Shown here piece after piece: positions 1 through 45,640 of a DNA stretch of 64,000 nucleotides. The DNA comes from an uncultured virus (IMG/VR IMGVR_UViG_2599185107_000001) (taxonomy: Duplodnaviria > Heunggongvirae > Uroviricota > Caudoviricetes): the IMG/VR virus record IMGVR_UViG_2599185107_000001, positions 1 through 64,000 of that record; one strand, 5' to 3'. Positions within the stretch are counted from its first letter, which is position 1. The number at the start of each line of letters is the position of its first letter. Under the pieces are notes generated by a model. The model was not told the DNA's origin and did not search any database. It saw only the letters and a list, made by a program, of their open reading frames with translations. A program made the translations under genes and the position numbers.

Positions 1-390
1 TTATGCGGATTTAGCGGCGCGGATACCTCGTTTTTCGAGGCTCTTATTCACGCGCTCGGTGAGACTGTTTAGGTACTGCTGACCCTTCGGCGTAACGAAC
101 AGCAGGTTCCGCCGCCGATAGGCAGGATCAGGACGCTGCTGGACGAACTCCACGCCAGGCTTGCCCCTCTTGTCATATTCGCTCCAGTCCATGATGTGGC
201 GAGATGCAGAGGAGCTGCTGAGGCCCTTGATGTGCTTTCCCAGGTCTAACTGTTGGAGCCCTGGGTGCTCGTAAGTCGTCGTCAAACAGAGCAACTTGGA
301 AGCCAATAAATCCGCGTCCACATCTTCCCGAAGCCCTTCCAGTGCAACCTGCAGGATATGGACGAGTTCGTCGGTCGTAAGTTTGGTCAT
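1..390 (-). CDS. MarR-type winged-helix regulator
   Basis: Start taken at MTKLTTDEL. HTH region (SSSSASRHI) plus wing motif DPAYRRRNLLFVTPKG. MarR genes precede int and RNAP in integrase-bearing T7-like phages. Confidence 0.75.
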   Translation of the reverse strand: MTKLTTDELVHILQVALEGLREDVDADLLASKLLCLTTTYEHPGLQQLDLGKHIKGLSSSSASRHIMDWSEYDKRGKPGVEFVQQRPDPAYRRRNLLFVTPKGQQYLNSLTERVNKSLEKRGIRAAKSA

Positions 391-445
391 GGGGTGGTTC
401 CAATGGGTTTCAGGAAGTGGGCGCCACCTTCCCCCAAGGTTGGCG

Positions 446-3848: not shown

Positions 3849-4379
3849 ATGTCTGATTTGTTGGAATTAATGAAAGCCAGCCTTGGGCCGGCCGTTGCGC
3901 TGATGGGCGTGGCCGTTGCAGCGGCGCAGTGGCATACGAACGATGTCAAGCTAAGGCTTGATTCCTACGACCGGCGGCTGAGGGTGTATAAGGCGACGGT
4001 TGCGATGCTTGACAGCGCAGTAGCTGAAATACGTCGACGGCGTGTACCTAGCTGGCGCAAGTCAAACAAAAAACCAACCCTTCCTTATGAGGAACTGCCC
4101 GAAGAGGTGGTAAAAACATTCCAGGACTGCTTGCTTGAGGCTTCTTTTCTTTTTGATCGAGAAGTGACGCACACAATGCACTACATCGATAGAGAGGTGC
4201 GTCTTGTCCGCATGTACGCGATTAATTTGGCAAAGAAGGAGCCGAGCGAATTACTCGAAAAGTCCGGGCAAACCAGTCTGCGTGAGTTGCGGGAGGCGGA
4301 GGCGCGGATTGAGAAGCTGGACAAGAATATAGAGAAGCCTTTTCGGCGCTATCTCAAGCTTCAGCGGTTCCAGAAGTAA
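3849..4379 (+). CDS. Moron: N-terminal TM helix plus helical domain
   Basis: 176 aa, opposite strand, visibly more AT-rich. Confidence 0.7.
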   Translation: MSDLLELMKASLGPAVALMGVAVAAAQWHTNDVKLRLDSYDRRLRVYKATVAMLDSAVAEIRRRRVPSWRKSNKKPTLPYEELPEEVVKTFQDCLLEASFLFDREVTHTMHYIDREVRLVRMYAINLAKKEPSELLEKSGQTSLRELREAEARIEKLDKNIEKPFRRYLKLQRFQK

Positions 4380-4987
4380 TGGCCGTTGGCTTCATAAGCT
4401 TCCCCGCCCAAATGCATATCGCGCCCGTAACTAGCAAAGTCAAAGTAGCGGGCCACGCTTTCGGGCACATCTTGTAGCAGTCCCCCATCCTCGACGACGT
4501 GTTCCGCAACCTCGGCCCAGCTGTTGAATTCGCCAATGTAGCGCTCGCGGAAAGTGTCGATATCCTCGCCGTCCTCGACCTCGCAGAAAGCATCGAATGC
4601 TTCGCGCTCGTCGTCGCTGAGGTCCTCTAGCTCCTGCAATCGTTCCATCAAAGCGGACAGGTCGGGGTGTTCAGTGTCCCGGAAGCCTGCCGGAAGGTCC
4701 TCGCTGTCGTGGACAGCCCATTCCTCGGCGCTGGGCACCTTGCCGGTTCCTTTGCACAGTGCGCACAGTGGCGGGATGCCCGCGGGACGATCAGGGTCGG
4801 CGTCGCCGCTGCCCCCGCACTCCGGGCACTCCGCGGTCACGTTCGGGTGTGGCGACTCGCGCAGCATCTCGGCAATCTCCGCCTGCACGTCGTCGGCGTC
4901 CATCCCGTCCAGGTCGATCCAGCGCCCGTGCAGGACGCCGTTGTTGTAGGAGGCCAGGCAGGCCACGTAGATGCGCGGGGCGGTCAT
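4361..4987 (-). CDS. ardA: ArdA antirestriction protein with inserted Zn-finger
   Basis: RIYVACLASYNNGVLHGRWID, EEWAVHD, YFDFASYGRD; very acidic. Confidence 0.92.
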   Translation of the reverse strand: MTAPRIYVACLASYNNGVLHGRWIDLDGMDADDVQAEIAEMLRESPHPNVTAECPECGGSGDADPDRPAGIPPLCALCKGTGKVPSAEEWAVHDSEDLPAGFRDTEHPDLSALMERLQELEDLSDDEREAFDAFCEVEDGEDIDTFRERYIGEFNSWAEVAEHVVEDGGLLQDVPESVARYFDFASYGRDMHLGGEAYEANGHYFWNR

Positions 4988-11849: not shown

Positions 11850-13828
11850 TCACCAGATCCACAGATCGCCATCCTGTGCTGTCCCGCCAGGGTCGCCGGG
11901 GCTTACGAAGGTACGTGCCTGTCGAATCCAGGCCGTGCCGCCTAAATTGAGCTGATAGAGTTCGGCCGTGGTGCGGAATCGGCCATTGCACTGAATGCCG
12001 TAGTCGCCGTCGTTTACCAAGTTCTCGGCGCCATCACCGACGTATATGCGTCGATGCCTGATGGCCCCAGAGTCGTCCTCGGTTGGAATATGCCGCTGTA
12101 GCCCTGTGTTACTCATGAGACGCATCGGACGGTTGCCCGGACTGCCGTCCGAGTTTCCACCCAGGAATCCGAGCGAAATGGCATCTGAGCCCGACCGGTG
12201 GAAGCTTATAGACGGCGCGGTTCCGCCTTGGGGCGTCCTCAGTTCGATATGCGACCCGCCAAAGGTGCCGGAGTCCCAAGTGCCTGACTTCTCCACCCCG
12301 ATCCGACCGGAAATCCACCCTCCGCTGGCGTTGAATTTGAGGTCCGGGTTGAAGTTCCCCGGTAATCCCCCCGCCCATTAGCAGACGCCAGAAGTGGAAT
12401 TTTCTCGTATCCTTTCTCGAGGAGGTTCCATGAAGAAGTCCCGCTTTACCGACAGCCAGATCATCGCCGTGCNAATATGGCGCTCGGCGGCATCACGCCT
12501 GCCATGAAGTTGGCGATGGCCGCTTAGCTCCACTTCTGGCGACCGCTAGAAGTGGGGGGATTACCCCCCGAGTTCCACAGTGTCTGCCAAGTGGTGCCCT
12601 TGTCACGACTCATCAAGCCATCGAAACGCAGCAACATGTTTCCGCCATTGCTGCTGCCAACCTGGAGCGTGCCATCTCCTACGACAGGCAGTCCGGTGAA
12701 CACAGGCGAGACCCTTGGAGCCTTCGCATCCAAGGCCGCTTGCTGTGCAGAACTGATCGGCTTGTTTGCGTCGCTCGTGTTGTCGACGTTCGACAGGCCA
12801 ACGTCGCCCTTGGTGTGCGTGTGAGTGCTCGGTGGGTAGCTGGTCGGTTTGTTCGCGACATGACTGTTGAAGTCCACGGTGTCGCGCGTCGCCAGCGCAC
12901 CCAGCCCGGATACGTCTCCGGGCACGAGCTGGACCGCACCGGACTTTCCCGCCACCGATGTGACCTGTTCGGTGTTGTCGATGTGGTCCCAGCCGGCCCC
13001 GTTGCTCACGATCTGGTCGCCGGGGTTGTATTGCCGGGCGTCGACGAAGCCACCGACGGTGACCTTGTAGAACGCCCCCGTGTTGCCGCCTTGCGGGAAC
13101 GAGCCGGTGCTTGCGTCCCAGCCGCCGCGGTAGATTAGCGTGCCAGTAAGTGACGCCCTGGCTTGTTCAGACCAGTGCTTCGCTGAGTAGGCTCCCGGTT
13201 CAAGCTCGGTGCCTGCCGGTGCGTTGGCCCAAGCCTGGGCTTGGTCACTCCAATCTTCCGCCTGGTGTGCGTAAGAGGCGGCCTGATCCTCGCTGGACGC
13301 CGCCGCGCTCGCTGAGGCCACCGCATTGGACTTGGAGTTTGCAGCTTGGATCGCATCGGCGTCGGCATCAGCTGCGCTGGCGGATGCCGCCTTCTCGTGC
13401 AGTCCAGCCGATTGATTGCTTAACGCGGACTCGGTTGCACTTGCGGCGCTTGCAGTTGCACTTTCAGCTGCCGCTTCGGCCCGAGCTGTCGCGTCTTTAA
13501 GACGCTCGGCGGTATCCTCTGCACTCGCCTGTGCATCGTTGGCCGAAGCCTGAGCACCCTCAGCGTACAGACGTGCCATGCTGGCAAAGTCAGAGGCGCC
13601 AGCGACGGCGCCCGTCAGTTCATCCACCAGATCCGAGACGTCCGCGTAGAGCTGAGGGAAGGACGGCAGGACGCGATCCTTGCCGAGACCGTCAGTGACC
13701 GTCACGTCTCCTTCCGGTTGAGTCAGTAGCGCGATCATCTGGTTCTCGCGCGTGTTCCAGCGATCCACCAATGCCGAGATGCGTTCTGCAAGTTTGGCGT
13801 TGGAGACGTAACCTGGTGTTTCTGCCAT
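11850..13828 (-). pseudogene. Tail fibre interrupted by an IS (589 aa when rejoined)
   Basis: Removing 12361-12565 plus one CCCC fuses ...LWNSG to NFNPDLKF...DGDLWIW in frame. Confidence 0.88.
12361..12565 (+). mobile_element. IS3-family element (IS1404-like), collapsed at an assembly gap (N at 12473)
   Basis: Terminal IRs GGTAATCCCCCC / GGGGGGATTACC; CCCC target duplication; orfA start [14 protein letters not shown]. Confidence 0.88.
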
Positions 13829-25324: not shown

Positions 25325-25362
25325 AAAAAAAACCGGAGGTCCCCGTTAAGAGACCCCCGGTT
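25325..25362 (-). terminator. T-phi-like terminator after the capsid gene
   Basis: AACCGGGGGTCTC-TTAACG-GGGACCTCCGGTT followed by a T-run. Confidence 0.85.
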
Positions 25363-25456: not shown

Positions 25457-26407
25457 TTACTTGGTGCCTAGCTCGACAGCACCGTCGCCACGCAGCTCGC
25501 CGTGGCCCAGTGCGTACTTGGACAGCATCAGGGTGCCCTGCTTGTTGCCCTGGTACACGTCCTCGACGGACAGACCCAGCAGCTGCAGCGTGCCCACCGC
25601 CGAGCGGTGGAAGATGACGCCCGCGGTGCCGCTGTAGTCGCCGCGGTACTTGGCCTGCAGCGTCGCATCGGCCGACTCGTCGATGCCCGGCAGGGCGTTG
25701 ACCTTCAGCAGCGGGATGCGTGCGATGGACGAAATGACGGCGTCGTTGTAGCTGCCCTTCGACTCGGTGTTGATGTCCTTGTCGATCAGGTCCTTGTTCT
25801 CGGTCAGCAGGTAATACTGAGCCGGACGCAGCGCACCCGTGAACTCCTGCGGGTTCTCCGAGATGCCCTTCTCGTCGAAGTTCTGGCGCGCGGCGCGGAA
25901 CGCCTTCGCCATCACGACCGGGTCAGTCAGCATCGCAGCGTTGACGATGCGCAGGCCGCCCGGCTGGCCGTCGACCACCGAGTCGGTGATGCGGGCTGCA
26001 CGGATGGCGCAACGCAGTTCGTTCTTCATGCGCTGCAGAGCCAGCTCGGCGCCCTGCAGGCGGGTGTACTCGCCGCGCACGTCGAAGTGGTTCATGGCCT
26101 CGTCGATGTTCGCGATGAACACGTCCGAGATGAGCATCGGGTCGAGCGTCAGGATGCGCTCGTTGTGGTCCACGGTCTGGCCCAGGATGTCGGTGCCGGG
26201 GACGTGGTAACGCGAGCCGACCTTGCCGATTGCCGGGAACGACGCGGACTTGCCGGAAGAGATTGTGCGCGTCATGACGCGGCCTTCCAGCTTGTAGTTC
26301 TCGATGAACGAGGTATCGACCTCGGCCATGTAGTTCTGCATGAACAGCGCCCAGGCATCGCCCTGCTTGTTGATCTGACCGATGCGGCTGGGATTGGAAT
26401 CTGCCAT
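25457..26407 (-). CDS. Major capsid protein (gp10-like)
   Basis: RTISSGKSASFP, DEAMNHFDVRGEY, YALGHGELR. Confidence 0.96.
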   Translation of the reverse strand: MADSNPSRIGQINKQGDAWALFMQNYMAEVDTSFIENYKLEGRVMTRTISSGKSASFPAIGKVGSRYHVPGTDILGQTVDHNERILTLDPMLISDVFIANIDEAMNHFDVRGEYTRLQGAELALQRMKNELRCAIRAARITDSVVDGQPGGLRIVNAAMLTDPVVMAKAFRAARQNFDEKGISENPQEFTGALRPAQYYLLTENKDLIDKDINTESKGSYNDAVISSIARIPLLKVNALPGIDESADATLQAKYRGDYSGTAGVIFHRSAVGTLQLLGLSVEDVYQGNKQGTLMLSKYALGHGELRGDGAVELGTK

Positions 26408-29301: not shown

Positions 29302-29358
29302 GATTCTTTAGGTGAACTTAGAGTGGATCTAGAAAGGGGAAAACCGTGGGTTTTCCCT

Positions 29359-29376
29359 CTAGAGGCCCGACTAATT
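29359..29376 (-). promoter_or_regulatory. Phage-RNAP late promoter AATTAGTCGGGCCTCTAG (+1 at 29359)
   Basis: 16/18 identical to the copy at 43425-43442; T7-like layout; at the class II/III boundary; transcript begins with a hairpin. Confidence 0.75.
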
Positions 29377-39361: not shown

Positions 39362-39365
39362 TGGG

Positions 39366-39399
39366 TTTCCTGTGTTGGGATGAATCCCAAATATGGGAT
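39366..39399. promoter_or_regulatory. Tandem operator-like palindromes
   Basis: TTTCCT-GTGT-TGGGAT and perfect ATCCCA-AATA-TGGGAT, 18 bp apart. Confidence 0.72.
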
Positions 39400-40140
39400 G
39401 TATCAGGCAAAGAAATAGCTGCTCTCAAGCACTGCGGAGAGGTCCAGGTCACCGAAGGGGGGAATCTCTGGAAGGTCAGCGGCGACCTCCACGGGTAGCT
39501 GTTCGGCCAGTTCGGTTCTGAAGTTGCCCAGTACGTCGCCCTCGTATTGCTCAATAAAGGCGTGACGCAGCGCGGCGGCGAGGGTGCCGGTGTTGCCGGC
39601 ATGGGTTCCGTAGGAGTCGTGGATCATCGCGAAGCTGGTGATCCCGTTGTCCGACGCGAGACAGGTGGTCAGCATCAGGTGGCTCGCATCGCAGGAGTGA
39701 ACGAAGTTGGGGGAGATCCCTAGACCCTGGCGACGGCGGTCAAGTTTGCTCCCGTCCATAGCCACGATTAATTCGACGCGCTTGCCGCCGATGTGGGTTG
39801 TGACGCGCTTGCCGAGGTCCTCCCTGTACTCCTGCAGGACCGGGAAGCCTGCCGGCGTGGTCCACGCGATAGGGAGGTCGGAGGCCGATGCGACCTTCGA
39901 TGCTTCCTTCAGCCAGTCCATCGCTTGGCGCGCGGCCACCACGACTTCGCCAATGCAGTCCCAAAGAATGTCGCCGAGGTAAGCGGCCTGCTCGTTGGAG
40001 GGCGAGAGTCCCTCCTTTTTGGCGTTGGCCTGCACCTGGCCGCGCATACCGGACTTGGTGACGCCGTAAGGAAGCGTCATGACTGGCTGTTTGACGATGC
40101 CACGTGTCAACAGGTGATACGCCCAGGGTTCCGTAGACAC

Positions 40141-40995
40141 TCAAGACCCTCGTTGCGCGTAGCGCCGTTCAAACTCTACAGGGGACAGGTCGCCAGTTGA
40201 ACCATGACGGCGTTGTGGGTTGTAGAACATCTCGATGTAGTCGAACACCTCGGCGCGTGCGGCGTCCTTGGTGGGGTAGATCCGCCGCCTGATCCGCTCG
40301 CGTTTGAGCAGACCAAAGAAGCTCTCCACCGGTGCGTTGTCATGGCAGTTGCCACGCCGACTCATGCTGCACACCAAGCCATGGGACGCCAGGAAACTGC
40401 GCCAGTCATCGCTGGTGTAGACAGACCCCTGGTCCGAATGAACCAGGCAACCAGCGCTGGGTTTGCGCCGCCACACCGCCGACAGCAAGGCCTGCACGAC
40501 CAACTCGGTATCGGCTCGATCGCGCATCGCCCAGCCGACGACCTGCCTGGAAAACAGATCGATCACCACAGCCAGGTACATCCAGCCTTCATGCGTACGG
40601 ATGAAGGTGAAGTCGCTCGCCCAGGCCGTGTCCGGCTCGGTCACGTCGAACTGTCGATCCAGCAGGTTGGCTGCCGCCTTGCACGGCGTTCCGCCATGGA
40701 AGCGCGGCTTGCGGCCATAGCCCACCTGGGCACGCAGTCCCTCGGTGCGCATCAATCGATGCACCCGATGGCGACTGCAACGCTCACCCAGATCGCGTAG
40801 ATCCTTGGCAATCTTGCGATGCCCATAGACACTGCCGCTGGCCAACCAGTGGTGCTTGATCAGCCCCAGCAGGCGTTCGTCTTCCTTGGCGCGTTCACTG
40901 TCGGGCGACTTTAGCCACGCGTAGTATCCAGCCCGGTTCACCCGCAAAACCCGGCACATCGCGCACACCCTGAATTCTTCGCGGTGGACTTGCAT
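40141..40995 (-). CDS. IS3 transposase OrfB (DDE)
   Basis: WASDFT, HSDQGS, DNAPVESFF. Confidence 0.95.
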   Translation of the reverse strand: MQVHREEFRVCAMCRVLRVNRAGYYAWLKSPDSERAKEDERLLGLIKHHWLASGSVYGHRKIAKDLRDLGERCSRHRVHRLMRTEGLRAQVGYGRKPRFHGGTPCKAAANLLDRQFDVTEPDTAWASDFTFIRTHEGWMYLAVVIDLFSRQVVGWAMRDRADTELVVQALLSAVWRRKPSAGCLVHSDQGSVYTSDDWRSFLASHGLVCSMSRRGNCHDNAPVESFFGLLKRERIRRRIYPTKDAARAEVFDYIEMFYNPQRRHGSTGDLSPVEFERRYAQRGS

Positions 40996-41012
40996 GAAGA
41001 GGTACTTTGCCT

Positions 41013-41285
41013 TTACCCCTTGGCAAAGTACGCGGCGGCCTTTTTTAGGATGTCGCGCTCCTCCGTCACCCGGCGCAACTCGATCTTCAGCCGCCGGACT
41101 TCGGCGCTCTGGTCCGCCTCAGCGCGCTGTACTACGCCGGGCTTGCCGAACTTGCGCAGCCAAGCGTACAGGCTGTGCGTGGTGACACCCAGTCGCTCGG
41201 CGACCTCTGCCACCTTGAACCCACGATCGGTCACTTGCCGGACCGCCTCGATCTTGAACTCATCCGTATACCGCTTACTGCTCAT
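41013..41285 (-). CDS. IS3 transposase OrfA
   Basis: HTH plus leucine zipper; A6G slippery site near its 3' end. Confidence 0.93.
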   Translation of the reverse strand: MSSKRYTDEFKIEAVRQVTDRGFKVAEVAERLGVTTHSLYAWLRKFGKPGVVQRAEADQSAEVRRLKIELRRVTEERDILKKAAAYFAKG

Positions 41286-43165
41286 GGACACCTCCGAATC
41301 AGCCATTTTCCATGGCCTTGAGATGTCTAGGAAATCCTGGGCGTATCANCCGGACCGCCTCGATCTTGAACTCATCCGTATACCGCTTACTGCTCATGGA
41401 CACCTCCGAATCAGCCATTTTCCATGGCCTTGAGATGTCTAGGAAATCCTGGGCGTATCAAGGCCATCCCAGAACAAGGCGCAAGCGTTCCCTGCCTCGG
41501 CTTCTGCCCTGACACGCGCCGCAGCCACGTCCATCACTGCCGTGTAGATGTCGGCCGGCTTGTCCTGCGGTAGAAGGTTCGTCGCAGAGCCGCCGATGGA
41601 GTCTCGGAGCATCGCCGAGAAGTTCTGCAAGCCGTTGCACGAGCCGTCGAGGGCGACCGGCAGGTGCGACACGTGCTCGTTGCCGTTAATGGAGTAGCCG
41701 AGCCACTCAAAGCAGGCGGCGAGGGCGCAGAACGGCGAGTCGGCTTTGGACCAAGCGCGCTGGCCGTCCAGCGGGTTGAGGGCCGAGTCTAGAATCATCT
41801 CCTCGTTCGCCTTGACCCACGCGAGGCGTTCCGAGAAGGCGACCTTATCGACGCCGAAGCAGTTTGCGACGTGGATAGCCAGCCAGAACGCGCCGTCCTC
41901 GCCAAGCGGTACGCCTTCGGCAAGTGTCAACAGTGCTTTTGCCTGGTCGTCGCCTTGCGGAGTCAGGATCGATGGGATCGGGTAGACCCGTCCGCGGAAG
42001 TCCAAGTTGTGCGGAAAGTAGATCGCCTCCTCTTCTTTGAACTTCACCGCCAGAGCGATTTTCTGCGCTGCCGACAATCGGCGGGAGGTGCCGCGGGCGT
42101 TCTCTTCGTAGACCTCTGCGCGGGCGCGCTTCCACGCCTTGAACTCCTCCGCATGGTGCTCCTTGTAGAACTCGGGGTCGCTAACCAGCAGTGCCGGCTG
42201 CTCCGGCAATTCCACTAGGTCGCGGTCAGGCAGGTCAGCGAAGCCGCCGCCCATTGCCCAAGCGTCCTGCATAACTTCCAGGACTGGTTTGTTGATCTTC
42301 CACGGAGTGGACTGGATGAGGTTGACCGCCCGGTAGACATTGGGCATGTCTGCCTGCTCCAGCTCGCGCTTGTAGGCACGGTTGCGCGTGCGCACGAGGT
42401 CCGCTCTTCCGCCGATGTCGGTGAGATAGCCACCGTCGCGAGGCGTCGTCCAGTCCTTGGGCGGGACGAGCATGGGCAACCACACTGGCAGGAACATCGA
42501 GGCGCTCTCGTGGGCCTTGGCGAGCCACTCGCGGATCGCGGCGGTGCCCTGAAGGATCGCGACGGTTTGGTTCTTGCGGGGTCTGGTCAGGATGATTTCG
42601 ACCAGGCCAGATGCCTCAATGAAGAGGTCGATCAGCTTCATGCCGACCAGAGCCTCTTCGTCCGGCGTGAACACGAACATTTCGGTCTCGGTCTTGGCGA
42701 GGGCGTGGTTCATCACTCCGGTCGAGTGATGCGCAGAGGTGGATTTCTTCAGCTGTTGTTGGATTACCCGGTAGAGGCCCGCGTGGTTGTCCCGCAGCTT
42801 TTTGTAGTTCACGTCCTGGGCGAGGGCAGCGCCTACAGAGCGCGCTACTGCTGTCAGCTTGGCCTGCTCGCCAGCCAGGGCATTCACGCACACCACCGCG
42901 GTCAGGTAAGCGCAACCCTCGGGGTCGAGATGCTCCAGCCACTTCACCGCCGTGTGTCTACGGCCGCCACCTCCTTGCTTAGCCTTCTCGACAAACTCAC
43001 GGATGGCTTGGCCGGTGGCCGCGACCGCTTGCATGACCAGCTTCTTGCCGGGGCCGGTGTCAGCCTCGTCGGAATTGGCGCGGGCCTTCTCGTAACGGGC
43101 AATGCCGAGCGAAGTCGATTCGGATTCCAGCTGGAGCTGGCGTTCGTGGAGCGTTTGGGCGGTAG

Positions 43166-43199
43166 ATTGCATATTAGGAATGCGTCCCGAATTTGAGAT
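43166..43199. promoter_or_regulatory. Degenerate tandem operator pair over the RNAP start codon
   Basis: ATTGCA-TATT-AGGAAT and GTCCCG-AATT-TGAGAT, 18 bp apart. Confidence 0.55.
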
Positions 43200-43208
43200 G
43201 GAATGGGC

Positions 43209-43244
43209 AAACGAAAAACGCCCCCGCCCGAAGGCGGAGGTGTT
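43209..43244 (-). terminator. Intrinsic terminator in the RNAP leader
   Basis: AACACCTCCGCC-TTCG-GGCGGGGGCGTT followed by TTTCGTTT. Confidence 0.78.
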
Positions 43245-43350
43245 GGCGGAGCTGCTGAAACCGGCACGGCCGGAGGGTGGTACTCGAAGAGCCCCTTCAG
43301 TGGAACTGAAAGAGAGCTTTAAGTGACACCCTTGTGGTTCGAACTATCTT

Positions 43351-43366
43351 ATCCCATATCTGGGAT
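43351..43366. promoter_or_regulatory. Perfect operator-like palindrome
   Basis: ATCCCA-TATC-TGGGAT. Confidence 0.72.
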
Positions 43367-43424
43367 CGTATCTGCCGCACTTAGAGCTGGAGGTCTTTTG
43401 CCTCCCTCTGAAAGTTCGTTTGGT

Positions 43425-43442
43425 CTATAGCCCCGACTAATT
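43425..43442 (-). promoter_or_regulatory. Phage-RNAP promoter AATTAGTCGGGGCTATAG (+1 at 43425), upstream of the RNAP gene
   Basis: AT-rich -17..-13, TATA at -4..-1 and G at +1, as in T7/SP6 promoters; second copy at 29359. Confidence 0.78.
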
Positions 43443-43446
43443 GGTC

Positions 43447-43498
43447 GCGTCACCTGTGACGCCACGGATGTCACCTTTACGTCACCCGCGGCGTCACA
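43447..43498. repeat. GTCAC repeats, putative integrase arm-type sites
   Basis: Four direct and one inverted GTCAC about 40-90 bp from the att core. Confidence 0.5.
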
Positions 43499-43535
43499 AA
43501 CGAACGAAAACGTTGTATGCTTAGGGGCTGGGGCA

Positions 43536-43583
43536 GGATTGTGATTCCAGATGTCGGGGGTTCGAGTCCCCTCAGCCACCCCA
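43536..43583 (+). repeat. att core: 3' half of tRNA-His(GTG)
   Basis: GGATTGTGATTCCAG...GGTTCGAGTCCC...CCACCCCA; D-arm and 5' acceptor strand absent. Confidence 0.9.
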
Positions 43584-44458: not shown

Positions 44459-45640
44459 CTACCTGCGTCTGGGGGGCTGAACCACTGGTACGTCATGTGT
44501 GTACCTGTTGGTCATCTGCTGCGTCGCATGACCGGCGGCCTCCTGCTTGTCGGCGCGGGTACCGGCGGTGTCGGTGATTCCCCGATGCTTCAGTCCATGC
44601 AAGCTGAATCGCAGTTCAGCTGTGATGACCCCATCCTTGATGGCGAGCGCGATCATTCGTTGCCAAGCACTGTCGAGCGCTGACTTGCTCAAGGGGGTGC
44701 CCGATTGATTCACCAGAAGCCGGCGCTGTCCCGGTTTCATATGCAGAGGGCGCCCATGGGCGTTCATCGTTCGTTGCCGATAGGCCGCCAACCAGGCCCA
44801 GGCGTGGCGCAGGTCATCGTTCCAGGCAGTAACCGTGTCACGAGAGCCTTTGCGCCGGCTGCTCCGTATGCCCTCAGCCTCCGCGTGCGCATCAGTTAGG
44901 TCTGTGACCTCAACACCGCGCAGGCGCACGTTGTAGGCGAGCAACATCACCGCGTGGAGATAGGGCGGCACACTGCCGCGTGTATGCGCCTTGAGGCTGC
45001 CGCGTTCGAGCGCAAAGGCCAGCACGGTGGCGAATACATCAGATTCGGGCATGTTGTGCTCACCGCGCTCCTTCGCCTGGCGGACCCCCTTGGCAGGATT
45101 GTGCTCGCATAGGCCCATACGAATGCCCCAGCCGAAGGTGCGACGCAGGTAGCGCAAGACATGGTTGGCTTTGCTCGGGCGCGGTTCGATTGCGGGCTGC
45201 AGTTTGGTTGCTGGCCGACCTCCCGCGAGTGTTTCGACCAAGCGCTGCATCGCCGGCACGTTGATGCGCGCAATCTGCATCTTGCCGAGCAGCGAGCCAT
45301 CCTTGAGCACATACGCAGTCGCTGTCTCGGCGCACCAGCGGTAATCCCGCTGTGTGTCCCTCGACAGCTCTGCAAATTCAGTGGACGCCTCGAAGCGTTC
45401 CGCGAGGTAAGCCAATGTGCCCCTGACCTCATTGCCCGCTGCGGCTTCAGCAATGCTGTGGAGCTCAGAAAGCCGGATATCAGCATGGGCGACCGTCCGC
45501 TTTCGCGGACGGCCTCCTTCTGGATGAGCTTCTAAGAGATACCAGCGGTTGTCTTCCCAATAGATACCCTTGGGAAGGGCTGCTTGGTCAATATGCGCTG
45601 GAATAGCCGGGTTGAACTTCCGTTTTCTACCGCGTCCCAT
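44459..45640 (-). CDS. int: Tyrosine integrase
   Basis: R (RLRGVE), HGLKH, GH and Y (TNRY) catalytic pattern. Confidence 0.92.
   Translation of the reverse strand: MGRGRKRKFNPAIPAHIDQAALPKGIYWEDNRWYLLEAHPEGGRPRKRTVAHADIRLSELHSIAEAAAGNEVRGTLAYLAERFEASTEFAELSRDTQRDYRWCAETATAYVLKDGSLLGKMQIARINVPAMQRLVETLAGGRPATKLQPAIEPRPSKANHVLRYLRRTFGWGIRMGLCEHNPAKGVRQAKERGEHNMPESDVFATVLAFALERGSLKAHTRGSVPPYLHAVMLLAYNVRLRGVEVTDLTDAHAEAEGIRSSRRKGSRDTVTAWNDDLRHAWAWLAAYRQRTMNAHGRPLHMKPGQRRLLVNQSGTPLSKSALDSAWQRMIALAIKDGVITAELRFSLHGLKHRGITDTAGTRADKQEAAGHATQQMTNRYTHDVPVVQPPRRR

What the first reader, a model, noticed from the sequence alone, without database searches (positions are those of the whole stretch)
43425..43442. 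New phage-RNAP promoter, with one copy pointing into the polymerase's own gene
Seen: AATTAGTCGGGGCTATAG (43442-43425) and AATTAGTCGGGCCTCTAG (29376-29359) match at 16/18 and have the T7/T3/SP6 layout with a different specificity core (GTCGGG). One copy is about 250 nt upstream of the RNAP start; the other is at the head of the virion operon. I found no other good copies by eye. Inference: the RNAP amplifies itself and drives class II genes from the same promoter. That positive feedback would need the operators and terminator to hold it off in a lysogen. The repaired RNAP would be a candidate orthogonal polymerase/promoter pair.
Basis: partly seen in the sequence, partly recalled or inferred. 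Interest (0 to 1): 0.85.

Follow-up and report, generated by a model that had tools for sequence, protein, structure and literature searches.

The report
Phage polymerase promoters, one inside its gene
A dormant T7-like virus in a bacterial genome carries three copies of its own polymerase's promoter, and one copy is written into the codons for the part of the polymerase that reads promoters.

Summary
Both 18-mers sit at the stated coordinates on the gene strand of a T7-like prophage whose RNA polymerase (RNAP) gene is split by an insertion sequence. Chance is excluded: 0.05 matches expected, and 0 of 100 shuffles reached the observed 3.

Comparative evidence makes them the RNAP's cognate promoters. 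Both sites are conserved in close relatives. In diverged relatives the same sites carry a different, lineage-specific sequence that changes together with the RNAP specificity loop. This holds for seven specificities.

It lies in the codons of the specificity loop and tracks each lineage's own promoter. It uses the gene's rarest codons, and its synonymous sites are frozen.

A phage promoter upstream of the phage's own RNAP, with a positive-feedback model and a MarR-like repressor, is already published for phage LUZ100. Caulobacter phage S2B has the same three-promoter plan.

A conserved terminator-like hairpin lies between the upstream promoter and the RNAP start, so self-amplification is probably throttled.

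No transcription start was mapped. The verdict is a real feature and a new variant of a known kind.

The parts
43425..43442 (-). P1: phage-RNAP promoter upstream of the RNAP gene; predicted +1 is G at 43425
   Evidence: Conserved in 4 of 4 close relatives that hold upstream sequence. Replaced by a lineage-specific matched motif at the same place in diverged relatives.
39756..39773 (-). P2: third promoter copy inside the RNAP ORF (codons E-L-I-V-A-M-D, in the specificity loop); predicted +1 is G at 39756, 351 nt before the RNAP stop codon
29359..29376 (-). P3: promoter at the head of the virion-gene block; it overlaps the TAG stop of the dNMP-kinase-like gene; predicted +1 is G at 29359
   Evidence: Identical in 5 of 5 related records searched. 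A matched lineage-specific motif lies about 405-412 nt upstream of the portal gene in G006, G008 and G009.
43173..43424 (-). 252-nt structured leader between P1 and the RNAP ATG
   Evidence: The 256-nt stretch 43425-43170 (+1 through the ATG) folds at -91.2 kcal/mol, z = -3.79, and 0 of 200 shuffles fold as well. Alignments A1 and A2.
43211..43240 (-). Intrinsic-terminator-like hairpin (stem 43240-43221) with a T-rich tail, 44 nt upstream of the RNAP ATG
   Evidence: A stable hairpin plus T-rich tail lies 21-46 nt before the ATG in all 11 loci examined (9 different stems; dG -14.8 to -28.2).
43449..43500 (-). Phased array of five GTGAC sites (four direct, most as GGTGAC, and one inverted; about 11-12 bp apart) between the att fragment and P1. 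The binding protein is unknown.
   Evidence: It is the only such cluster in each genome scanned. It is present in relatives, as GGTGGC in one lineage.
43525..43583 (+). 3' fragment of a tRNA gene marking the prophage end (att). By eye the anticodon loop reads as tRNA-His-like.
   Evidence: ARAGORN does not call it. RNA/DNA graph branch points lie at 43550 and 43583. Relatives carry other tRNA 3' fragments at the same place.
41461..43172 (-). RNAP gene, N-terminal part
   Evidence: Pfam RPOL_N and RNA_pol. Joint 40111->41461 in another strain.
40112..41460 (-). IS3-family insertion sequence splitting the RNAP gene. The assembly holds an N at 41349 flanked by a 111-nt duplicated join.
   Evidence: Pfam rve/HTH_Tnp_1. 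Inverted repeats and the duplication. Skipped in all 4 laid runs.
39403..40111 (-). RNAP gene, C-terminal part, holding the specificity loop and P2
   Evidence: Pfam RNA_pol. Translation ends in ...SSYFFA. Alignment to T7 RNAP.
29337..29357 (-). Stem-loop at +3..+23 of the predicted P3 transcript
   Evidence: Relatives have different sequences that also form a hairpin at this place (flanks shown).
25331..25362 (-). Strong terminator-like hairpin (14 pairs, then T7) just after the capsid gene
   Evidence: capsid gene 25457-26407.
13..399 (-). MarR-like regulator of the lysogeny module, at the far end of the prophage. The integrase that follows it in relatives lies off the record.
   Evidence: 46% identity to the G005 regulator, E 1.1e-37. 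(33% identity to the LUZ100 MarR-family regulator, E 2e-14). In relatives the regulator hits phrog_9665 and the adjacent integrase hits phrog_1. Only one integrase is in the record, and it belongs to the neighbouring prophage.

Best explanation
The 18-mers are cognate promoters of the prophage's T7-type single-subunit RNA polymerase. The prophage has three, all on the gene strand.
- P1 lies 252 nt upstream of the RNAP gene.
- P2 lies inside the RNAP ORF, in the codons of the promoter-specificity loop, and points into the DNA-metabolism genes.
- P3 lies ahead of the portal/capsid/tail/terminase block.

Inferred working. A little RNAP is first made by leaky host transcription. RNAP then fires P1 (self-amplification, damped by the conserved leader terminator), P2 (replication genes) and P3 (virion genes). 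In a lysogen the loop is kept off by the MarR-like regulator and by prophage geometry. Integration through the att site next to P1 places the regulator-integrase operon 43 kb away, at the other prophage end, and the leader terminator shields the RNAP gene from outside transcription.

In this strain the circuit is dead because an IS splits the RNAP gene.

Shown: presence, position, orientation, conservation, co-variation with the RNAP loop, and DNA-level selection on P2. Inferred: initiation at the predicted G, the feedback loop, and who binds the GGTGAC array.
For: (1) Chance is excluded.

(2) The layout matches the T7 consensus quoted: an AT-rich 5' end, an 8-nt core that differs, and an identical CTATAG at the 3' end.

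(3) Close relatives. P1 is present in 4 of 4 loci that hold upstream sequence, and P2 in 7 of 7. P3 is present in 5 of 5 records.

(4) In diverged relatives (RNAP 55-70% identical) the same three places carry a different motif that is matched within each genome. There are seven specificities. Own P2 versus own P1 gives 14-17 of 18 identities in six lineages. The seventh, L055, scored 7 because my anchor was one base out of register, and 15 of 18. Off-diagonal pairs average 9.2, with a maximum of 14.

(5) Whole-genome scans at up to 4 mismatches found the three copies as the only gene-strand matches in G006 and G009, in the window's prophage (8001-43700) and in G005. G005 had one extra 4-mismatch match on the opposite strand. 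In G007, whose contig ends before P1, P2 and P3 were found plus one unrelated 4-mismatch match.

(6) The RNAP loop residues at the T7 R746/N748/R756/Q758-equivalent positions differ between lineages and are the same within them. Those four residues make the base contacts in T7.

(7) P2 is under DNA-level selection. It holds the only TTA among 79 Leu codons in L008 and the only AAA among 31 Lys codons in L015. In L010 its GC3 is 0.38 against 0.93 for the gene, in the lowest 0.3% of windows. It has 1 variable site in 18 nt against a mean of 5.35, in the lowest 1.2% of windows among 8 distinct alleles in which 538 of 806 third positions vary.

(8) Single-base co-variation: L014 has AGTCGTC in both P1 and P2, while L012 and L013 have AGTGGTC in both.

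(9) Precedent. LUZ100 has a TSS-mapped phage promoter phi1 directly upstream of its RNAP and phi2 right after it. S2B has exactly three copies at up to 5 mismatches: before the RNAP gene, 44 nt after its stop, and before the portal operon.

(10) A MarR-like regulator is in the window. The order regulator -> integrase -> att -> GGTGAC array -> P1 is seen in a relative assembled with terminal repeats.
Against: No transcription start was measured. The only RNA data available were assembled contigs, which cannot show starts or strand.

A conserved terminator-like hairpin lies between P1 and the RNAP ATG. If the phage RNAP stops there efficiently, P1 mainly makes a roughly 210-nt leader RNA, not RNAP mRNA.

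In this lineage P2 differs from P1/P3 at 3 of 18 positions, including -1, so it may be weak. Two of those positions also vary in other copies: L006's P1 carries the same G-to-A change, and G006's P3 has a T where its P1 has a G, which I take to be the corresponding core position.

The margin of the 18-mer test over its null is small for single loci (15-17 against a null maximum of 14-15). For L010 the best hit was elsewhere (14 of 18).

No sigma-70-like promoter for the first round of RNAP synthesis was found on the gene strand, so the ignition step is a guess.

Three promoters for about 43 kb is few, though Syn5 has two.
Confidence: 0.85

Rival explanations
1. P1 is a true phage promoter, but its main product is not RNAP mRNA. 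Most transcripts end at the leader terminator and yield a structured RNA of about 210 nt. That RNA could be regulatory or could prime replication at the genome end. RNAP synthesis would then depend chiefly on host transcription.
For: A terminator-like hairpin follows P1 in all 11 loci examined. The leader is unusually structured (z -3.79). P1 sits at the very end of the phage map next to att. From my own recall, not from a call: T7 has a polymerase promoter near its left end that is linked to replication or packaging rather than gene expression.
Against: The published LUZ100 model reads its equivalent promoter as an RNAP amplifier. No other promoter for the RNAP gene was found. Hairpin terminators stop T7-type polymerases only partly (my own recall). 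No Rfam family matches the leader.
Confidence: 0.2
2. The copy inside the RNAP ORF (P2) is not used as a promoter. Its likeness to P1/P3 reflects another constraint, such as an RNAP-binding site acting as an autoregulatory roadblock, or an evolutionary relic.
For: In this lineage it has 3 mismatches including -1. No start was mapped. S2B, LUZ100 and 3 of the 7 ~40%-identity relatives tested place the second promoter after the RNAP stop rather than inside the gene.
Against: It tracks the lineage's own promoter in seven specificities. Rare codons and frozen synonymous sites show selection on the DNA itself. It is on the sense strand in a fixed codon register. No other copy lies between the RNAP gene and the replication genes. 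A relic would have decayed. A pure binding site would still require recognition by the RNAP.
Confidence: 0.12
3. The repeated 18-mers are binding sites of some other protein, such as a repressor or packaging factor, and are not promoters.
For: There is no direct initiation data. Only three copies exist.
Against: The sequence changes in step with the RNAP specificity loop, not with any other gene examined. The positions are those of known T7-group, LUZ100 and S2B promoters. The 3' end CTATAG is identical to T7's. All copies face downstream genes.
Confidence: 0.04

Closest known systems
T7-group phage promoters (T7 consensus as quoted in PMC10134795)
   Same: An 18-nt unit ending at +1 G, an AT-rich 5' part, a central specificity core and a CTATAG 3' end (9 of 18 identical to T7). 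It is read by a homologous single-subunit RNAP (E 9.6e-136 to T7 RNAP) whose specificity loop varies with the core.
   Different: The core is GTCGGGG(C). Position 11 is G, whereas C pairs with the R746-equivalent residue in 91% of mined T7-like pairs. There are only three copies per genome. The host is a prophage, not a lytic phage.
Pseudomonas phage LUZ100: phi1 promoter upstream of its RNAP, plus a MarR-like regulator and integrase (PMC10134795, passages read; record OP329100)
   Same: A phage-specific promoter directly upstream of the phage's own RNAP gene, with a proposed positive-feedback loop and MarR repression. The regulator is homologous (33-35% identity). A tyrosine integrase lies beside the regulator and a tRNA-type att site is used. 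A second phage promoter lies at the RNAP gene's 3' side.
   Different: In LUZ100 the terminator (T4) precedes phi1. Here the terminator follows P1. In LUZ100 att lies between the regulator and the integrase. Here it lies between the integrase and P1, so integration moves the whole regulator-integrase operon away from the RNAP gene. LUZ100 phi2 is after the RNAP stop, and its RNAP ORF holds no promoter copy (best 11 of 17). LUZ100 has eight promoters.
Caulobacter phage S2B (MN857473; RNAP about 44% identical)
   Same: Exactly three copies of one motif (AATTACCCCATG[T/C]CCTAGG): upstream of the RNAP gene, next to the RNAP gene's 3' end, and ahead of the portal operon. An integrase lies upstream of the RNAP gene.
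   Different: The second copy lies 44 nt after the RNAP stop, not inside the ORF. The core is different. I found no statement on these promoters in the papers searched.
Cyanophage Syn5 (PMC3950665, passages read)
   Same: Very few polymerase promoters per genome: two. This implies long, processive transcription units.
   Different: Unrelated promoter sequence. No copy inside the RNAP gene is reported in the passages read.

Membership tests
T7-type single-subunit-RNAP promoter | A conserved unit of about 18-23 nt, repeated in a genome that encodes a T7-type RNAP, all copies co-oriented with the genes | tested here: met
   Three copies, all on the gene strand. RNAP homology to T7.
T7-type single-subunit-RNAP promoter | Copies lie at the heads of transcription units (the early/replication and virion blocks) | tested here: met
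   P1 is before the RNAP gene, P2 before the SSB/primase/DNA polymerase block, and P3 before the portal/capsid block. The places are the same in relatives.
T7-type single-subunit-RNAP promoter | Promoter core co-varies with the RNAP specificity loop | tested here: met
   Seven promoter cores pair with seven loop sequences. Cores and loops are identical within the two lineages sampled more than once.
T7-type single-subunit-RNAP promoter | The cognate RNAP initiates at the +1 G | not testable with these tools
   Only assembled RNA contigs were available, and they show no starts.
Temperate T7-like phage with a MarR/integrase lysogeny module (LUZ100 type) | A MarR-like regulator next to a tyrosine integrase, upstream of the RNAP gene in the phage map | tested here: met
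   The regulator is in the window at 13-399. The regulator-integrase pair is present in G005, G006 and G009. In this record the integrase is cut off.
Temperate T7-like phage with a MarR/integrase lysogeny module (LUZ100 type) | A phage-specific promoter directly upstream of the RNAP gene | tested here: met
   P1.
Temperate T7-like phage with a MarR/integrase lysogeny module (LUZ100 type) | Regulator binding sites flanking that promoter (as LUZ100's authors cite from Boeckman 2022) | tested here: inconclusive
   A GGTGAC array lies only upstream of P1. Direct repeats one helix turn apart are also typical of excision factors (abstract of PMC7498355, seen in the listing). The Boeckman paper is not held.

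The most novel reading that the evidence does not exclude
In this clade of Xanthomonas/Stenotrophomonas/Lysobacter T7-like prophages, the polymerase gene carries one of its own promoters inside the codons of its promoter-reading loop. It starts at or next to the T7 Q758-equivalent residue. Protein 'reader' and DNA 'target' therefore share the same 18 bases. The overlap has been kept, in the same codon register, while promoter specificity diverged at least seven times.

If P2 is functional, three things follow. The cognate promoter of an uncharacterised polymerase of this clade can be read off its own gene. The overlap constrains which loop residues and which promoter bases can co-exist. Residue-base covariation at these loop positions partly reflects the genetic code rather than contact.
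Probability: 0.7. Interest if true: 0.8.

Novelty: new variant of a known kind. Interest (0 to 1): 0.62.

Why it matters
It supplies seven natural polymerase/promoter pairs with distinct cores, whose cognate promoters are inferred from three concordant copies each. These are raw material for orthogonal expression systems, and intact alleles are available without repairing anything.

It shows that the self-directed promoter proposed for LUZ100 is a shared design of temperate T7-like phages: this clade, S2B, and at least 3 of 7 more distant relatives. In this clade a terminator sits inside the loop, and integration breaks the link between the early operon and the RNAP gene.

The promoter hidden in the specificity-loop codons is an overlapping code I did not find described (searches; Boeckman 2022 not readable). 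It gives a direct handle on how polymerase and promoter co-diverge.

Tried and rejected
RNA evidence. One search found 4 RNA-library runs from one study that hold the stretch. Laying them gave only assembled contigs, so there is no start, strand or level. They do show an intact RNAP allele and an extra insertion (see Noticed in passing). Contig depth for the late block was 1.4-2.5 times that of the early block. I do not use this as evidence of promoter activity.

Rfam: the prophage has no family match other than tRNA-Lys.

Sigma-70 consensus scan: there is no gene-strand candidate between att and the RNAP gene or around P3. The scan is weak, so this is not proof of absence.

Palindromes. ATCCCAGATATGGGAT in the P1 leader (43366-43351) and ATCCCATATTTGGGAT after the RNAP stop (39399-39384) looked like paired operators. 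They recur only in the Xanthomonas group, not in the four other lineages checked, so I left them unexplained.

GGTGAC array as integrase arm sites. No second cluster was found on the integrase side or elsewhere, so this stays undecided between excision factor, integrase and regulator.

I first read the 4-residue longer loop of G009 as being encoded by the promoter half. That depends on where the alignment places the gap, so I dropped it.

The L010 18-mer test picked another hit (14 of 18). Its P2 is supported only by the consensus scan (2 mismatches in 18).

The L055 row of the matrix is out of register by one base because of my anchor.

The ~40%-identity relatives L016-L023 show no loop-embedded copy (0 of 7 above null).

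Earlier scan notes: none exist for this genome.

The Boeckman 2022 paper could not be read.

One script ended in an error after printing its main result.

Full report
**What is in the window**

The finding lies in a T7-like prophage on the minus strand. Pfam identifies, in T7 order:
- an RNAP gene in two pieces (43172-41461 and 40111-39403);
- SSB, an amidase, primase/helicase, DNA polymerase and a 5'-3' exonuclease;
- a dNMP-kinase-like gene, portal, capsid, nozzle and tail fibre;
- small and large terminase, holin and lysozyme.

The RNAP gene is split by an IS3-family element. That element carries an assembly join: an N at 41349 flanked by a 111-nt duplication.

The right prophage end is a 3' fragment of a tRNA gene at about 43525-43583, followed by a host tRNA-Lys. 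Beyond it lies a separate myovirus-type prophage with its own integrase. The window is the first 64 kb of a 79-kb provirus record.

**The observation**

A degenerate scan at up to 3 mismatches gave 3 matches against 0.05 expected, and 0 of 100 shuffles reached 3. Positions:
- Copy 1 is 252 nt upstream of the RNAP ATG.
- Copy 2 overlaps the stop codon of the dNMP-kinase-like gene. It precedes a 61-aa ORF, a 55-aa ORF and the portal gene.

The last six bases of copy 1, CTATAG, are identical to the end of the T7 consensus quoted. The 5' end is AT-rich and the middle differs.

**Conservation and co-variation**

The RNAP N-terminal part found 21 related loci in the viral collection, at 36-96% identity.

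In the close group (RNAP 86-96% identical):
- P1 is present in 4 of 4 loci that hold upstream sequence. Three further loci begin at the ATG and cannot be scored.
- P3 is identical in 5 of 5 records searched.

In relatives at 62-70% identity, the best 18-mer shared between the RNAP-upstream region and the portal-upstream region falls at the same two places: 212-267 nt before the RNAP ATG and 405-412 nt before the portal start. The sequence there differs in each lineage.

A scan of species-representative genomes added prophages in Xanthomonas arboricola pv. juglandis, Stenotrophomonas, Lysobacter and two MAGs. That brings the count to seven distinct promoter cores. The sites are conserved in place and change in sequence together with the polymerase.

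**The third copy**

The 3-mismatch match (39773-39756) lies inside the RNAP ORF, at nt 2051-2068 of the 2421-nt gene.

Whole-genome scans with each lineage's own consensus at up to 4 mismatches gave these results:
- In G006, G009 and the window's prophage (8001-43700), there were exactly three matches: P1, P3 and this in-gene site.
- G005 had the same three plus one 4-mismatch match on the opposite strand.
- In G007, whose contig ends before P1, the in-gene copy matches P3 at 17 of 18. One unrelated 4-mismatch match also appeared.

A direct test compared the loop-coding DNA with the RNAP-upstream region.
- 6 of 7 clade loci gave 15-17 of 18 identities, landing on P1. The null maxima were 14-15, taken from 40 other segments of the same gene.
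- The seventh, L010, picked another hit at 14 of 18. Its P2 is supported only by the consensus scan.
- 8 of 8 loci gave 15-17 of 18, also landing on P1.
- None of 7 relatives at about 40% identity exceeded the null.

Own-P2 versus own-P1 identity is 14-17 of 18, while other-lineage pairs average 9.2 with a maximum of 14. The L055 row of that matrix is out of register by one base because of my anchor. One search gives 15 of 18 for L055.

**Where P2 lies in the protein**

An intact allele aligns to T7 RNAP over its whole length (E 9.6e-136). The P2 codons (E-L-I-V-A-M-D in this lineage) fall on T7 residues from about Q758 to K765. That is inside the antiparallel loop whose residues R746, N748, R756 and Q758 make the base-specific contacts in T7. 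The mapping is good to within one or two residues, because the loop is one residue shorter here.

The loop sequences differ between lineages at those positions. They are identical among the sampled alleles of the Stenotrophomonas lineage. In the Xanthomonas group they are identical apart from conservative changes in L009 (M to I in the P2 block, S to T beside it).

In the six lineages where I checked the codon frame, the register is the same. Position -17 is the second base of the first codon, and +1 is the first base of the codon preceding an invariant glycine (my reading of the outputs).

**Selection acts on the DNA of P2**

P2 is built from the rarest codons of the gene:
- the only TTA among 79 Leu codons in L008, and the only TTA among 90 and 86 in L013 and L014;
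- the only AAA among 31 Lys codons and the only ATT among 32 Ile codons in L015;
- two ATA codons in L011;
- GC3 of 0.38 against 0.93 in L010, in the lowest 0.3% of windows.

Among 8 distinct alleles of the Xanthomonas group, 538 of 806 third positions vary. The P2 18-mer has one variable site against a mean of 5.35 per window, which puts it in the lowest 1.2% of windows.

L014 has C where L012 and L013 have G at one core position. The difference appears in both P1 and P2.

**Surroundings of P1**

Upstream, between the att fragment and P1, lies an array of five GTGAC sites about 11-12 bp apart.
- It is the only such cluster in each genome scanned.
- It recurs in relatives that use other tRNA att sites.
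- Candidates for the bound protein are an excision factor, the integrase or the regulator. Direct repeats one helix turn apart at att and at promoters are typical of excision factors (abstract of PMC7498355, seen only in the listing).

Downstream, the 256-nt stretch from +1 through the ATG is strongly structured (z -3.79). It ends in a GC-rich hairpin with a T-rich tail 44 nt before the ATG. All 11 loci examined, with 9 different stems, have such a hairpin 21-46 nt before the ATG. The structure, not the sequence, is conserved.

**The lysogeny module**

In a relative assembled with terminal repeats, the order is regulator, integrase, att fragment, GGTGAC array, P1, RNAP. The regulator is 35% identical to the MarR-family regulator of LUZ100.

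In the window the regulator lies at 13-399, at the opposite prophage end. The integrase is cut off by the record's start. G005 is collinear with window 43802-4363.

Integration at the att site next to P1 therefore separates the RNAP gene from the early/regulator/integrase transcription unit. That unit includes an ArdA anti-restriction gene at 4361-4987.

**Comparison with what is known**

The LUZ100 paper (passages read) maps a phage-specific promoter phi1 directly upstream of the RNAP gene. It proposes leaky host read-through, positive feedback and MarR repression, citing Boeckman 2022 for regulator sites flanking the promoter. That paper is not held.

The LUZ100 record places terminator T4 before phi1 and places phi2 just after the RNAP stop. 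Its promoter motif does not occur inside its RNAP ORF (best 11 of 17).

S2B has exactly three copies of its own motif at up to 5 mismatches: 121 nt before the RNAP ATG, 44 nt after the RNAP stop, and before the portal operon.

Three of 7 relatives at about 40% identity (L016, L017, L021) show a matched motif both before the RNAP gene and 44-242 nt after its stop. They scored 16-18 of 18 against null maxima of 14-15. L018 exceeded its null by only one (15 against 14), and L019, L022 and L023 did not exceed theirs.

Syn5 has only two polymerase promoters.

The self-directed promoter and the three-unit plan are therefore known or shared. Placing the middle promoter inside the specificity-loop codons is confined to the clade with at least 55% RNAP identity. 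I did not find it described.

**How it most likely works**

Shown:
- three co-oriented, co-varying copies at the heads of the RNAP, replication and virion blocks;
- DNA-level selection on the in-gene copy;
- a conserved terminator-like hairpin after P1;
- a MarR-like regulator.

Inferred:
- The RNAP initiates at the G ending each 18-mer.
- P1 gives damped self-amplification.
- P2 drives the replication genes.
- P3 drives the 21-kb virion block. Its copies share a C at -3, a GGGAA-type start and a 5' hairpin in all five lineages with a known P3.
- The off state rests on the regulator, on the terminator, and on the physical separation created by integration.

In this strain the IS in the RNAP gene makes all three promoters inert.

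**What RNA data added**

Four RNA-library runs from one study hold the prophage with zero differences and with the RNAP gene uninterrupted (joint 40111->41461 in 4 of 4 runs). These are contigs, so they say nothing about starts. They break at 29329-29332 in all four runs (see Noticed in passing).

Noticed in passing
window 29329-29332: In the RNA-library strain (runs X4-X7) both contigs break at the CTAG 27 nt downstream of the predicted P3 start. The 30-nt loose ends are inverted repeats of each other (17 of the first 18 bases identical), and the two contigs share these 4 bases. This looks like an IS5-type insertion with a 4-bp target duplication, cutting P3 off from the virion genes. That strain has an intact RNAP gene, so different strains appear to disable the prophage at different key points.
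   Followed up: partly
window 12380-12560 (N at 12473): A second, collapsed insertion sequence lies between the tail-fibre genes and the holin region. An IS3-type orfA start ([14 protein letters not shown]...) and inverted ends flank a single N.
   Followed up: no
window 43795-64000: A separate myovirus-type prophage (tail sheath, baseplate hub, tape measure, gp25-like, Toprim primase) sits directly beside the T7-like one. Its own integrase is at 44459-45640, next to tRNA-Lys.
   Followed up: partly
window 43351-43366 and 39384-39399: Two near-identical 16-bp palindromes (ATCCCA-N4-TGGGAT) bracket the RNAP gene, one in the P1 leader and one just after the stop codon. They are conserved in the Xanthomonas group only. 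They could be an operator pair or RNA hairpins.
   Followed up: partly
window 43173-43215 and 39362-39410; relatives: A TTTGCC...CATCCC box recurs just upstream of the RNAP start codon and just upstream of the next gene's start codon, across lineages. There is no obvious Shine-Dalgarno sequence before the RNAP ATG.
   Followed up: no
window 4361-4987: An ArdA anti-restriction gene lies in what is probably the phage's early region, between the lysis genes and the MarR-like regulator.
   Followed up: no
L058, about 40-65 nt upstream of its P1: A degenerate second P1-like sequence (GGAATAAAAGAGTCACCC...) stands in tandem upstream of P1 in the most distant clade member. Its GTGAC sites lie about 150-200 nt upstream of P1, not abutting it.
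   Followed up: no
window 25331-25362: A very strong terminator-like hairpin (14 pairs, then a run of 7 T) lies right after the major capsid gene, as in T7 and LUZ100.
   Followed up: no
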